Positions 1 to 2,678 of a DNA stretch of 2,678 bases are shown piece after piece. The stretch lies in assembly GCA_000002435.2 (NCBI GenBank), contig AACB03000022.1; one strand, 5' to 3'. The number at the start of each line of letters is the position of its first letter. Position 1 is the stretch's first letter. The stretch is from Giardia intestinalis. Its lineage: Eukaryota. The translations under genes were made by a program, and so were the position numbers. Under the pieces are notes generated by a model. The model searched no databases, was not told the origin of the DNA, and was given only the letters and a program-made list of their open reading frames with translations.

Positions 1-982
1 CTGGGCCTTGGCGTCGTTCATGGCTCCGAGGTTTTCGGTCAGGGCAGAGACCCTGTCCTCAGCGGCGGCGAGCTGGGCGCGGGCGGTCTGCAGGGCGTCC
101 TGGGCCTCCGCCAGCTGAGCCGCGAGGGCATCTCGCTCGGCCTCCAGATTCTTGTGCTCGGCCTCCAGAGCTGCGCCTCGTCGAGGGCCTTATCGAGGGC
201 CGCACGGGCCTCATCGCGCTCGGCCTCTGCAGCACGCACGTCGGCTCAAGGCGGCGGATGGCCTCGTCGCCGCCCTGCGCCTGCTGTGCCTTGGCGCGGA
301 ACTTCTCTCGGCGGCATCGGCGAGGGCCTCTGTGCCTGCTGCTGCGTGTGCCTCGAGCTCGGCGATTTTGGCGCGGGCGTCGGCAAGCCTTTCTTCGGCG
401 GCCTTGGCCTGAGCTCCAGCTCTGCAGCGCGCTCTGCAAGCGCCTCTGCGTCGCGAGCACGCACGGCATCTTCGGCCGCCTGCTCGCGGAGGCGCGCCAG
501 CTCCTCGGAGAGATCCTCGAGCTGGGCCGCCTTGAGCTGGGCGTCTTCCTGGTGGGCGGCGGCCTGCTCGCGCGCTTCACGGAGCGCCGCTGCGTTCTCG
601 GCTGCGTCGCGGCGGAGGGCTGCAAGCTCCTGCTGAAGCTGCTGCGCGGCGTCGCCGTGGTCGGCAATCCCGTCGATCGCCTCTGCAAGCGCCTTCTCGC
701 GGGCCTCGAGCTTGTCTGTAAGGGCGGCGCTTTCGTCTTCGAGGCGACGGATCCTGTTCTGGGCGTCCTCGAGCGCGCCGTCTGTAGCGCTTCTTTTGAG
801 GTCCATGGCAGTAAGCTGGCGCTCGCGGTCCCGGACCTCCTCTGCTCGCGCTTCGGCCTTGCGGCCAGCGATTGAAGGGCACTCTCCAGCTCGTCGACGC
901 GGTTGCGCAGCCGTGCCGTCTTGGCGGCGCTTTCTTCTGCTTGCTCTGCCTTGCGGCTGCCTCGTCCTCCAGGGCTTGAATC
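1..982. repeat. Copy A of the long direct repeat, truncated by the window start. It is homologous to 1697..2678.
   Basis: Base-by-base comparison: identical to 1697..2678 except for indels at about 175 (-g), 245 (-c), 306-307 (+ct), 414 (-c), 426 (-a) and 842 (+c), plus four sites where B carries the change. There are no substitutions. Confidence 0.95.
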
Positions 983-2678
983 CGCGTTCTGGCGGCCTCG
1001 ACACTGGCCGTTGTTCGGGAAAGTTCGTCACTCAGCTGGCCGATCTCCTTGTCCTTTGCATCAAGGGTGGCATGGAGGTCATCTCGCTCGGCCTCGAGTT
1101 GAACGATGCGCTCTGCAGCGCCTTCATTGTCTTGCGCACGTAGTTGTTGAAGCTCGCGCTCGCGGTTGTCTGCCTCCTCGCGAAGTCTTTCTGCCTCATT
1201 CCGGAGCATGTCAAGCGCCACTGTCTTCTCATCGAGCTCGCCCTGCTTTTGCTCCAGCTCCTTCCTAAGAGCGCTTGCTTCAATAGTATATAATTTGAGT
1301 ATCTGACATCTGTGATTTAAGCTCACTAACAAAATCTTCCAACCGTTGAGTACGTTCTTTGGAATCGTTCGCTCTTTCCTCTGATGCCTTATTTAATTTT
1401 TTCAGGTCTGCTACCTCTGTCAAAAGTTCCTTTTTGTCGCGCTCGAGTTGAGCCACGCGATCAACAAGATCTTGAGATTCCTCTGCCTCTAGTTTCATAG
1501 TGGCAATTTCATCCATTTGTGCATTTAAGTTATCCAATAGCTCCGCCATCTGAATTTCATTGGCTTGTGCCTCATGGGTTCGTCTGGCAAATTCCATCTG
1601 GGACGCGACAAGCGTCTGCTGGAGTTGGATGATCTCCTCTTGGTGCTGGCGAATCGCTTGTCGAAGATCTGGGATGGTATCCTGCATCTCGCGGATCTGG
1701 GCCTTGGCGTCGTTCATGGCTCCGAGGTTTTCGGTCAGGGCAGAGACCCTGTCCTCAGCGGCGGCGAGCTGGGCGCGGGCGGTCTGCAGGGCGTCCTGGG
1801 CCTCCGCCAGCTGAGCCGCGAGGGCATCTCGCTCGGCCTCCAGATTCTTGTGCTCGGCCTCCAGAGCTGCGGCCTCGTCGAGGGCCTTATCGAGGGCCGC
1901 ACGGGCCTCATCGCGCTCGGCCTCTGCAGCACGCACGTCGGCCTCAAGGCGGCGGATGGCCTCGTCGCCGCCCTGCGCCTGCTGTGCCTTGGCGCGGAAC
2001 TTCTCGGCGGCATCGGCGAGGGCCTCTGTGCCTGCTGCTGCGTGTGCCTCGAGCTCGGCGATTTTGGCGCGGGCGTCGGCAAGCCTTTCTTCGGCGGCCT
2101 TGGCCTGAGCCTCCAGCTCTGCAAGCGCGCTCTGCAAGCGCCTCTGCGTCGCGAGCACGCACGGCATCTTCGGCCGCCTGCTCGCGGAGGCGCGCCAGCT
2201 CCTCGGAGAGATCCTCGAGCTGGGCCGCCTTGAGCTGGGCGTCTTCCTGGTGGGCGGCGGCCTGCTCGCGCGCTTCACGGAGCGCCGCTGCGTTCTCGGC
2301 TGCGTCGCGGCGGAGGGCTGCAAGCTCCTGCTGAAGCTGCTGCGCGGCGTCGCCGTGGTCGGCAATCCGTCGATCGCCTCTGCAAGCGCCTTCTCGCGGG
2401 CCTCGAGCTTGTCTGTAAGGGCGGCGCTTTCGTCTTCGAGGCGACGGATCCTGTTCTGGGCGTCCTCGAGCGCGCCGTCTGTAAGCGCTTCTTTTGAGGT
2501 CCATGGCAGTAAGCTGGCGCTCGCGGTCCCGGACCTCCTTGCTCGCGCTTCGGCCTTGCGGCCAGCGATTGAAGGGCACTCTCCAGCTCGTCGACGCGGT
2601 TGCGCAGCCGTGCCGTCTTGGCGGGCTTTCTTCTGCTTGCTCTGCCCTTGCGGCTGCCTCGTCCTCCAGGGCTTGAAT
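1..2678 (-). CDS. Internal fragment (both ends open) of a giant, tandemly repetitive coiled-coil protein gene. The reading frame is interrupted by about a dozen 1-2 nt indels, so it looks either frameshifted/pseudogene-like or laden with indel errors.
   Basis: All six minus-strand ORFs in the track (39..239, 59..688, 246..1031, 577..1332, 1280..2365, 1944..2579) contain long heptad-like A/E/R/L/Q/D/K-rich segments typical of alpha-helical coiled coils. Each of these segments is flanked by P/R/S/T-rich 'wrong-frame' sequence at the exact positions where the two repeat copies differ by an indel. Sense blocks in different frames abut one another and together tile the whole window. The plus-strand ORFs translate to L/G/S/R low-complexity mirror images (GAG->CTC, GCC->GGC). 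No start codon context or terminator is visible. Confidence 0.7.
411..872 (-). CDS. Sense-frame block of about 154 aa in repeat copy A. It is the sense part of track ORF 246..1031.
   Basis: Translation IAGRKAEARAEEVRDRERQLTAMDLKRSATDGALEDAQNRIRRLEDESAALTDKLEAREKALAEAIDGIADHGDAAQQLQQELAALRRDAAENAAALREAREQAAAHQEDAQLKAAQLEDLSEELARLREQAAEDAVRARDAEALAERAAELEL. The corresponding stretch of copy B is split by two compensating indels at about 2484 and 2368. Confidence 0.65.
949..1299 (-). CDS. Sense-frame block of about 117 aa of the same coiled-coil gene. It is the sense part of track ORF 577..1332.
   Basis: Translation LKLYTIEASALRKELEQKQGELDEKTVALDMLRNEAERLREEADNRERELQQLRAQDNEGAAERIVQLEAERDDLHATLDAKDKEIGQLSDELSRTTASVEAARTRIQALEDEAAAR. 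It continues the heptad pattern directly after the block ending at 1283, one frame over. Confidence 0.65.
1283..1570. other. Low-GC compositional island (roughly 40% GC) embedded in coding sequence that is otherwise about 70-80% GC.
   Basis: Hand counts of 60-bp blocks: 1321-1380 is about 43%, 1381-1440 about 38%, 1501-1560 about 37%. For comparison, 61-120 is about 80% and 481-540 about 72%. The flanks 1000-1283 and 1570-1750 are intermediate at about 55-60%. The minus-strand coiled-coil frame stays open across the island. Confidence 0.85.
1283..2128 (-). CDS. Longest uninterrupted sense-frame block, about 282 aa, of the coiled-coil gene. It is the sense portion of track ORF 1280..2365; the first 79 aa of that ORF are out of frame.
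   Basis: Translation ALAELEAQAKAAEERLADARAKIAELEAHAAAGTEALADAAEKFRAKAQQAQGGDEAIRRLEADVRAAEAERDEARAALDKALDEAAALEAEHKNLEAERDALAAQLAEAQDALQTARAQLAAAEDRVSALTENLGAMNDAKAQIREMQDTIPDLRQ...RLEDFVSELKSQMSDTQIIYY*. The block runs without a stop through both the GC-rich DNA and the ~40%-GC DNA. Its terminal TGA at 1280-1282 is probably not a real C-terminus (see findings). Confidence 0.75.
2117..2142. repeat. Local 13+13 nt tandem micro-repeat ctctgcaagcgcg|ctctgcaagcgcc. In copy A (420..444) it is 12+13 nt.
   Basis: Seen directly in the sequence. On the sense strand the 12-nt core gcgcttgcagag encodes A-L-A-E in both units, but the units are 13 nt apart. A frame change therefore sits here in copy B and not in copy A. 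Confidence 0.8.
2124..2366 (-). CDS. Sense-frame block of about 81 aa in repeat copy B. It is the sense part of track ORF 1944..2579.
   Basis: Translation IADHGDAAQQLQQELAALRRDAAENAAALREAREQAAAHQEDAQLKAAQLEDLSEELARLREQAAEDAVRARDAEALAERA, identical to the matching part of copy A. It is bounded by indel sites at about 2368 and about 2126. Confidence 0.55.

What the first reader, a model, noticed from the sequence alone, without database searches (positions are those of the whole stretch)
1..2678. Reconstructed repeat unit of about 565 aa from an unnamed giant coiled-coil protein, with no recognisable enzymatic or globular domain
Stitching the sense blocks together, using whichever copy is in frame at each site, gives this protein in N->C order on the minus strand: ...LSDELSRTTASVEAARTRIQALEDEAAARAEQAEESAAKTARLRNRVDELESALQSLAA[junction]AEARAEEVRDRERQLTAMDLKRSATDGALEDAQNRIRRLEDESAALTDKLEAREKALAEAIDGIADHGDAAQQLQQELAALRRDAAENAAALREAREQAAAHQEDAQLKAAQLEDLSEELARLREQAAEDAVRARDAEALAERAAELEAQAKAAEERLADARAKIAELEAHAAAGTEALADAAEKFRAKAQQAQGGDEAIRRLEADVRAAEAERDEARAALDKALDEAAALEAEHKNLEAERDALAAQLAEAQDALQTARAQLAAAEDRVSALTENLGAMNDAKAQIREMQDTIPDLRQAIRQHQEEIIQLQQTLVASQMEFARRTHEAQANEIQMAELLDNLNAQMDEIATMKLEAEESQDLVDRVAQLERDKKELLTEVADLKKLNKASEERANDSKERTQRLEDFVSELKSQMSDTQ[junction]LYTIEASALRKELEQKQGELDEKTVALDMLRNEAERLREEADNRERELQQLRAQDNEGAAERIVQLEAERDDLHATLDAKDKEIGQLSDELSRTTASVEAARTRIQALEDEAAAR -> back to the start. 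The sequence is almost pure heptad-type coiled coil, with only rare P or G (GIADHGD, TIPDLRQ, AHAAAGTE) as likely stutters or hinges. Repeat units of this length are unusual, since most giant filament or tether proteins use much shorter repeats. The sequence class resembles SMC, myosin-tail, Scy/FilP or M-protein-like cytoskeletal, tether or surface proteins, but I cannot assign a family from sequence alone.
Basis: partly seen in the sequence, partly recalled or inferred. Interest (0 to 1): 0.55.

Follow-up and report, generated by a model that had tools for sequence, protein, structure and literature searches.

The report
Giardia head-stalk protein stalk repeat
The window is about 1.6 copies of a 1.7-kb tandem repeat inside an already named gene of the gut parasite Giardia (head-stalk protein GHSP-138, annotated "axoneme-associated protein GASP-180"), read with small sequencing-type errors, so it is a real but ordinary finding.

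Summary
Bases 1-981 and 1697-2678 are the same sequence with 0 substitutions and 11 one- or two-base indel events. The corrected unit is 566 aa (1698 nt), almost entirely helical, with strong 3.5-residue periodicity.

The protein is neither unnamed nor unassignable. The DNA is 99.4% identical to Giardia duodenalis DH (assemblage A2). Outside one linker, the unit is 100% identical in protein to WB "head-stalk protein GHSP-138" (ACJ49153.1 / XP_001709357.1, 2124 aa). [quoted passage not shown]

The syntenic G. muris ortholog (TNJ27669.1, 4580 aa) carries 5.18 identical copies of a colinear 537-aa unit. The large repeat is therefore real and older than the species split.

Short-read and 454 assemblies collapse or gap this region. 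The indels are sequencing-type errors: each is private to one copy, and the six events that DH covers all resolve to the in-frame version.

One item is mildly new. The AT-rich segment inside the unit is absent from all annotated G. intestinalis proteins found here. The reference gene models may therefore be collapsed. Interest is low.

The parts
1..981 (-). Repeat copy 'A' (partial unit). It is the same sequence as 1697-2678 and carries private indel errors at +174, 244, 304-305, 413 and 948.
1697..2678 (-). Repeat copy 'B' (partial unit). It carries private indel errors at +2123, 2366, 2483, 2539 and 2624.
1697..2554 (-). Block A of the unit (AEARAEEVRD...ENLGAMNDAKAQ, 287 aa), 63-73% GC. It is 100% identical in protein to WB P0126, and the part present in DH P0124 is also identical. 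The same block lies at +1-857 in copy A.
1598..1696 (-). Block B (IREMQDTIPDLRQAIRQHQEEIIQLQQTLVASQ, 33 aa). In WB, DH, P15 and GS_B this block is followed by the unique C-terminal tail. In the window it is followed by block C.
1295..1597 (-). Block C (MEFARRTHEAQANEIQ...SELKSQMSDTQ, 101 aa), 43-47% GC. It is absent from every annotated G. intestinalis protein found. Blocks B+C together are 57% identical over 101 aa to the matching part of the G. muris unit.
1294..1294 (-). A single extra A in an A-run on the coding strand. This part of the unit is covered only once in the window.
860..1293 (-). Block D (LYTIEASALRKELEQKQGELDEK...RNRVDELESALQSL, then GRK across the frameshift). From LRKELEQ onward it is 100% identical to WB P0126 aa 1392-1529. 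A partial second copy lies at +2557-2678.
858..859 (-). Frameshift shared by both copies (also at +2555-2556). One base of a three-base run is missing: GG for GGG on the minus (coding) strand, CC for CCC on the + strand, relative to the reading LQSLGRKAEARA of WB.

Best explanation
The window is a piece of the stalk-coding region of the Giardia duodenalis (assemblage A) gene for head-stalk protein GHSP-138. This gene is one of several annotated 'axoneme-associated protein GASP-180'.

Sequence content: the window holds about 1.58 tandem copies of a 1698-nt (566-aa) unit that is in frame with itself. The indels between the copies are read or assembly errors, not biology.

Protein architecture: an N-terminal ankyrin-repeat head of about 200 aa, then roughly 850 aa of unique coiled coil, then the tandem units, then a coiled-coil tail of about 280 aa.

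Inferred mechanism: two or more chains pair along the heptad stalk to make a long rod. The ankyrin head binds a partner on the microtubule cytoskeleton, which is axonemes for the founding family member. At 0.1485 nm per residue, each 566-aa unit would add about 84 nm of rod, so copy number would set stalk length.

Inferred evolution: copies are kept identical within a genome by unequal crossing-over or gene conversion (concerted evolution), while the unit diverges between species.

Shown versus inferred:
- Shown: gene identity, strand and frame, tandem in-gene arrangement, helical and heptad character, orthology with the G. muris repeat, and the error nature of the six indel events that DH covers (the other five are private to one copy and resolved by reading frame only).
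- Inferred: dimeric rod, length-setting role, cytoskeletal partner, and concerted evolution as the homogenising process.
For: Identity:
- The only hit to the unit in 5.8 billion clusters is a Giardia GS_B partial protein at a contig end.
- Window 1599-2450 is 99.4% identical in DNA to DH contig AHGT01000001.1 inside gene ESU39728.1.
- Cluster members name the gene GHSP-138 / GASP-180.
- The unit is 458/566 identical to WB P0126. All differences lie in one linker.

Tandem and in-gene arrangement:
- WB P0126 holds two copies 503 aa apart, between unique N- and C-terminal parts.
- Short-read scaffolds L002, L003 and L007 have a 100-N gap exactly between the repeat's entry (…AALTDKLEAREKAL) and exit (RQHQEEIIQLQQT…).

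Orthology and age:
- G. muris TNJ27669.1 sits in the same gene neighbourhood: Ephrin_rec_like, NGP1NT GTPase and kinase genes upstream, and a gene of about 3000 aa downstream.
- It has 5.18 DNA-identical copies of a 537-aa unit.
- That unit aligns end to end and colinearly with the window unit, 217/568 identical.

Errors:
- Each between-copy indel is private to one copy.
- Six of the 11 events lie in the part of the unit that DH covers, and DH supports the in-frame version at all six.
- The 3 substitutions against DH are shared by both copies.

Frame: codon-position differences are 7/6/58.

Structure. Ankyrin head.

Family context: Elmendorf et al. 2005 (PMID 15982656), as cited in PMC3243723 and PMC5142787. 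GASP-180 family proteins are abundant in cytoskeletal fractions (bioRxiv 10.1101/361105).
Against: - The window's own source record was not found, so the isolate is unknown.
- No other G. intestinalis sequence retrieved contains block C or the B-to-C and C-to-D joins. Support for them is the window itself plus colinearity with G. muris.
- One frameshift (+858/2555) is shared by both copies, so it is not a random private error.
- Nothing here tests dimerisation, localisation or a length-setting role for this family member. I found no paper on GHSP-138 itself.
- Identical copies in assemblies can partly reflect consensus polishing.
Confidence: 0.93

Rival explanations
1. The window-type unit is an assembly chimera. 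The true assemblage A gene would be exactly the WB model (A'-W-D-A''-A'-B-tail), and the B-to-C-to-D path in the window would be a misjoin of unrelated AT-rich and GC-rich coiled-coil sequence.
For: Block C and its joins are seen in no other G. intestinalis sequence retrieved. There is a sharp GC change at both edges of the AT-rich part. The window has error-type indels, so it comes from low-quality sequence.
Against: The G. muris unit has the same order. Its first 101 aa match B+C at 57% identity (E = 7e-33), running straight across the B/C boundary, and the whole unit is colinear. The end of C is homologous to the end of WB linker W (ANDSKERTQRLEDFVSELKS against ASDSKERTQMLEDYLSELKS), and the C-to-D spacing equals WB's. 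The reading frame is continuous across both joins, apart from one extra base in an A-run.
Confidence: 0.04
2. The frameshifts are real. On this view the window is a decaying, non-functional duplicate (pseudogene) of the repeat.
For: There are 11 between-copy indel events plus 2 further frameshifts in 2.7 kb, and one of them is shared by both copies.
Against: There are zero substitutions between copies, and decay would give substitutions as well. Every between-copy indel is private to one copy and lies in a homopolymer or dinucleotide run. At the six events DH covers, DH has the in-frame version. The corrected protein is 100% identical to WB outside the linker.
Confidence: 0.03
3. The sequence is a small circular or rolling-circle element of about 1.7 kb with an endless ORF, read more than once around.
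For: The window is 1.58 head-to-tail copies. The ORF is continuous around the period and runs off both ends.
Against: The same unit is embedded in frame between unique N- and C-terminal coding sequence in chromosomal contigs of WB, DH, GS_B and G. muris, with conserved neighbours. Entry and exit points lie at different phases of the unit.
Confidence: 0.01
4. It is a bacterial cytoskeletal or surface coiled-coil protein of the SMC, Scy/FilP, crescentin or M-protein type.
For: The composition is A/E/R/L-rich with 70% GC over most of the window. There are weak sub-threshold Pfam hits to coiled-coil families, including Rod_CreS.
Against: The DNA is 99.4% identical to a Giardia chromosome contig. 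Rod_CreS scores 12.4 bits against a cutoff of 100. Pfam finds no SMC or myosin head in the full-length proteins. There was no match in plasmids.
Confidence: 0.005

Closest known systems
Giardia intestinalis WB head-stalk protein GHSP-138 (ACJ49153.1; UniProt E2RU46; XP_001709357.1, annotated 'Axoneme-associated protein GASP-180'), 2124 aa
   Same: Blocks A and D of the window unit are 100% identical in protein. Both have an internal tandem duplication flanked by the same entry and exit sequences.
   Different: The WB period is 503 aa, not 566. Where the window has B+C (143 aa, AT-rich), WB has an 80-aa linker W. Only the last ~35 aa of W resemble C, and W has no detectable match to G. muris. 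WB shows 1.7 copies. The window does not tell its copy number.
Giardia muris 'Axoneme-associated protein' TNJ27669.1 (A0A4Z1T577), 4580 aa
   Same: It is the positional ortholog, with an ankyrin head, a coiled-coil stalk and a large tandem repeat colinear with the window unit, including the B-C-D-A order.
   Different: Its unit is 537 aa and only 38% identical. It has 5.18 copies. There is no GC jump within its unit (0.56-0.62 throughout). Its array ends inside block C rather than at the end of block B.
GASP-180 proper (GL50803_137716) and other Giardia head-stalk proteins (Elmendorf et al. 2005, PMID 15982656)
   Same: They share the architecture of N-terminal ankyrin repeats plus a long coiled coil. 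Paralogs of this type are 28-31% identical over 58-97% of the N-terminal query.
   Different: They are different genes. I did not test whether they carry large tandem units, and axoneme localisation is reported for GASP-180, not for this protein. GL50803_16745 is also a different gene: its C-terminal primer encodes ...LASIQPQ.

Membership tests
Giardia head-stalk protein family (GHSP/GASP-180; Elmendorf 2005) | N-terminal ankyrin-repeat head | tested here: met
   The head is not in the window itself. It is present in the full-length gene to which the window maps: P0126 scores Ank_2 108 bits (cutoff 27.3) and P0130 scores 99 bits.
Giardia head-stalk protein family (GHSP/GASP-180; Elmendorf 2005) | Long C-terminal alpha-helical coiled-coil stalk | tested here: met
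   3.5-residue periodicity z = 17.6, a/d occupancy z = 11. The AF2 model is all helix. Pairing of chains was not tested.
Giardia head-stalk protein family (GHSP/GASP-180; Elmendorf 2005) | Sequence identity with a named member (GHSP-138) | tested here: met
   458/566 identical, and 100% identical outside the B+C/W linker. DNA is 99.4% identical to the DH ortholog.
Giardia head-stalk protein family (GHSP/GASP-180; Elmendorf 2005) | Association with axonemes or the microtubule cytoskeleton | not testable with these tools
   Only literature on GASP-180 and 'GASP-180 family proteins' in cytoskeletal fractions is available. There is nothing specific to GHSP-138.
SMC proteins | ABC-type ATPase head halves and a hinge flanking the coiled coil | tested here: not met
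   Pfam finds only ankyrin families above cutoff in P0126 and P0130, with no SMC_N or hinge. Nothing in the window unit is above cutoff.
Bacterial intermediate-filament-like proteins (crescentin, Scy/FilP) | Match to the rod-domain model; bacterial origin | tested here: not met
   Rod_CreS scores 12.4 bits against a cutoff of 100. The DNA is Giardia.
Myosin II tail | N-terminal myosin motor domain | tested here: not met
   There is no myosin head in the full-length proteins. The head is made of ankyrin repeats.
Streptococcal M-protein-like surface fibrils | Signal peptide and C-terminal LPXTG wall anchor | tested here: not met
   The full-length protein starts MFLDSKEAWFACVNNGD (ankyrin head) and ends ...IIAELQKAQNA, with no LPXTG. 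The organism is eukaryotic.

The most novel reading that the evidence does not exclude
In assemblage A Giardia the real GHSP-138 gene may be considerably longer than either reference model (WB 2124 aa, DH 1621 aa). On this reading the gene holds several identical 566-aa G. muris-type units, including the so far unannotated block C. Copy number would differ between isolates and change stalk length in steps of about 84 nm. The copies would be homogenised by gene conversion, which would also have driven blocks A and D to about 70% GC in a gene that is otherwise about 45% GC.
Probability: 0.35. Interest if true: 0.35.

Novelty: already known. Interest (0 to 1): 0.15.

Why it matters
Mostly it does not change anything. 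The gene, its family and its internal duplication are already in public records.

The practical value is for annotation. The window shows a repeat unit form (with blocks B and C inside the repeat) that no annotated G. intestinalis protein contains but that the G. muris ortholog confirms. The WB and DH gene models may therefore be collapsed at this locus.

Every short-read scaffold examined has a gap there. Anyone studying Giardia cytoskeletal head-stalk proteins, or using this gene's read depth or length for isolate comparison, should treat its length as unresolved.

Tried and rejected
- Pfam on the unit gave only sub-threshold generic coiled-coil families.
- A PDB sequence search gave nothing.
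- A plasmid megablast gave nothing.
- A search with the unique tail of P0001 found only assemblage B fragments. The assemblage A orthologs were hidden behind a 929-aa cluster representative. They appeared only after searching with the N-terminal region and listing cluster members.
- P0126 has no contig on record, so WB DNA, including linker W, could not be examined.
- A look-up of the window's own 465-aa partial ORF found nothing on record, so the source contig remains unidentified.
- A JGI metagenome scan with blocks B+C found no relative.
- Literature searches for GHSP-138 and for its accessions returned no papers. Elmendorf 2005 is not held.
- I considered GL50803_16745 as the gene ID and rejected it on its C-terminal primer sequence.
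- The G. muris genome paper does not discuss this gene.
- COILS, Marcoil and DeepCoil were not available, so I used a periodicity test and an AF2 monomer instead.
- I did not run a fold search, because a single long helix gives uninformative matches.
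Full report
**1. What is in the window**

The 2678 bases contain one long direct repeat. 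Bases 1-981 recur at 1697-2678 with a spacing of 1696-1698 nt. A global alignment of the two copies shows no substitutions and 11 indel events (12 bases). All sit in homopolymers or dinucleotide runs.

No long ORF is intact. The minus strand nevertheless carries long A/E/L/R-rich stretches that switch frame at exactly these indels.

After correction the unit is 566 aa, or 1698 nt. The ORF is continuous around the period and runs off both ends of the window.

**2. Coiled-coil character**

- The unit is 22% Ala, 15% Glu, 12% Leu and 10% Arg, with one Pro and eleven Gly.
- Hydrophobic residues show a 3.5-residue periodicity far above shuffles (z = 17.6). The GC-rich block, the AT-rich block and block D each show it separately (z = 13.0, 6.6 and 6.1).
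- The best-register a/d occupancy has z = 11.
- An AlphaFold2 monomer of the longest in-frame stretch (272 aa) is a single helix, broken once at AQGGD, with mean pLDDT 88.
- Pfam gives only sub-threshold hits to generic coiled-coil families. No PDB chain matches by sequence.

**3. What it is**

A search of 5.8 billion protein clusters with the unit found one protein: "hypothetical protein GSB_151937, partial" of Giardia duodenalis GS_B.

- This protein lies at the end of a contig. Its first 170 residues match the unit, and it then continues into a unique tail.
- Metagenome scaffolds carrying the same tail hold a 1412-aa ORF. It has N-terminal ankyrin repeats, a long coiled coil, and a run of 100 N.
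- The N run sits exactly between "...DENAALTDKLEAREKAL" and "RQHQEEIIQLQQTIVASQ...", which are two different phases of the window's unit.

Searching with the N-terminal part and listing the members of the best cluster gave the names:

- DH "putative ankyrin repeat protein" ESU39728.1, 1621 aa.
- Two P15 fragments, both broken at contig ends.

Window 1599-2450 is 99.4% identical in DNA to the DH gene. The source is therefore Giardia duodenalis assemblage A.

Against GS_B, differences fall 7/6/58 on codon positions 1/2/3 of the minus-strand frame. That is the signature of a translated, constrained sequence.

**4. The repeat is real, tandem and inside the gene**

WB P0126 contains the A block twice, 503 aa apart, between unique N- and C-terminal sequence. 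The DH model has it once, so it is collapsed. An assemblage A short-read scaffold has a 100-N gap at the same spot.

The window unit is identical to the WB unit at 458 of 566 positions. All differences lie in one segment:

- The window has blocks B+C (143 aa).
- WB has an 80-aa linker "W", and only its last ~35 residues resemble the end of C.

To test whether B-to-C-to-D is genuine, I searched the B+C segment exhaustively against 1.84 billion representatives. The single hit was a 4580-aa protein with six matching stretches. It is G. muris TNJ27669.1, "Axoneme-associated protein".

- It lies in the same gene neighbourhood: Ephrin_rec_like, NGP1NT GTPase and kinase genes upstream, and a ~3000-aa protein gene downstream.
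- It has an ankyrin head.
- It carries 5.18 copies of a 1611-nt (537-aa) unit, essentially identical at the DNA level.
- That unit aligns end to end and colinearly with the window's 566-aa unit at 38% identity. The match runs straight across the B/C boundary, with 57% identity over the first 101 aa.
- Linker W has no detectable match to G. muris.

The window's unit is therefore the conserved form. The large repeat predates the split of G. muris and G. intestinalis.

**5. The indels**

- Six of the 11 between-copy events lie in the part of the unit that DH also covers. At each, one window copy agrees with DH and keeps the frame, and the other does not. Four errors fall in copy A and two in copy B.
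- The other five between-copy events lie outside the DH match. They are private to one copy and are resolved by reading frame only.
- The three substitutions against DH are shared by both copies, so they are true isolate differences.
- One frameshift (+858 and +2555) is shared by both copies. Relative to the WB reading LQSLGRKAEARA, one base of a three-base run is missing (GG for GGG on the coding strand). It looks like a systematic homopolymer or compression error.
- The frameshift at +1294 lies in the part covered only once. Removing one A from an A-run gives a C-to-D spacing equal to WB's.

This is the error pattern of 454, uncorrected long-read or low-coverage Sanger sequence. It is not gene decay, which would also produce substitutions.

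**6. Composition**

- Along the DH gene the baseline is 42-51% GC, with GC3 about 0.45.
- Only the repeat's A block rises to 67-73% GC, with GC3 0.72-0.81.
- Block C sits at the gene's normal level.
- The G. muris unit is flat at 56-62%.

Ala/Arg/Glu richness explains part of the rise, and the GC3 rise needs another cause. GC-biased gene conversion in a homogenised repeat is a reasonable guess that I could not test.

**7. How it probably works**

Shown:
- An ankyrin head and a very long heptad stalk.
- Tandem stalk modules that are identical within a genome and divergent between species.

Inferred from general coiled-coil knowledge and from the description of the family (Elmendorf et al. 2005, PMID 15982656, cited; GASP-180 at the intracellular anterior axonemes; GASP-180 family proteins abundant in cytoskeletal fractions):
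- The chains pair into a rod.
- The head docks on a cytoskeletal partner.
- Each unit adds about 84 nm (566 x 0.1485 nm), so copy number would tune rod length.
- Concerted evolution by unequal crossing-over or gene conversion would keep the copies identical.

None of these functional steps is tested for GHSP-138. I found no paper on it.

**8. Rivals**

- A circular element with an endless ORF is excluded by the chromosomal flanks in four genomes.
- A bacterial filament or surface protein is excluded by the DNA identity to Giardia.
- A pseudogene is unlikely, given zero substitutions and private indels.
- A chimeric assembly of the B-C-D path is unlikely, given the colinearity with G. muris. 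No second G. intestinalis sequence confirms it, though.

**9. Novelty and verdict**

This is a known gene of a family described in 2005. Its internal duplication is already visible in public proteins.

The only mildly new point is that assemblage A has a G. muris-type 566-aa unit containing block C, which is missing from all annotated G. intestinalis proteins found here. If the WB reference collapsed such units, an assembler would produce exactly the path N-term-A'-W-D-A''-A'-B-tail seen in P0126. The window-type sequence would then be left over.

A report of excess read depth on "a GASP-180 gene" in isolate AS175 (PMC4570179) fits this, but it may concern another paralog.

Interest is low (0.15). 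The identification is secure.

Noticed in passing
window 1-2678 (minus strand); L005 6001-10866; L006 5001-18743: There is a sharp GC change inside one ORF. Blocks A and D are 63-73% GC (GC3 up to 0.81 in the DH A block) and block C is 43-47%, against a gene baseline of 42-51%. The orthologous G. muris unit is flat at 56-62%. This might reflect GC-biased gene conversion in a homogenised repeat.
   Followed up: partly
P0126 aa 1313-1391 (WB protein; no DNA available): The WB reference has an 80-aa linker W in place of the window's B+C. W has no detectable similarity to the G. muris unit, whereas B+C does. The WB and DH gene models may be collapsed at this locus.
   Followed up: partly
L002 9654-9753 approx., L003 (same position), L007 9800-9899: All three metagenome-derived Giardia scaffolds have a 100-N gap exactly where the repeat array sits. 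In GS_B and P15 the gene is broken at contig ends.
   Followed up: yes
L001 1379-10654; L002 10683-19958; L005 10914-16866+; L006 18772-23743+: The downstream neighbour is a 3049-3091-aa protein (2807+ aa in G. muris) with no Pfam hit. It is syntenic in every locus examined. Its function is unknown and it was not studied.
   Followed up: no
window 419-449 and 2116-2147: There is a short 12-13-nt tandem motif, GCTCTGCAAGCGC x 2.5. It overlaps one of the copy-specific indels (+2123, an extra A in copy B).
   Followed up: partly
L004 12739-13287: In the Logan contig of an assemblage A run (SRR13990249), the gene model P0003 ends in a frameshifted tail (…EEKYVDHRIRFF…), and a second ORF continues to the contig end. 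The contig stops before the repeat.
   Followed up: no
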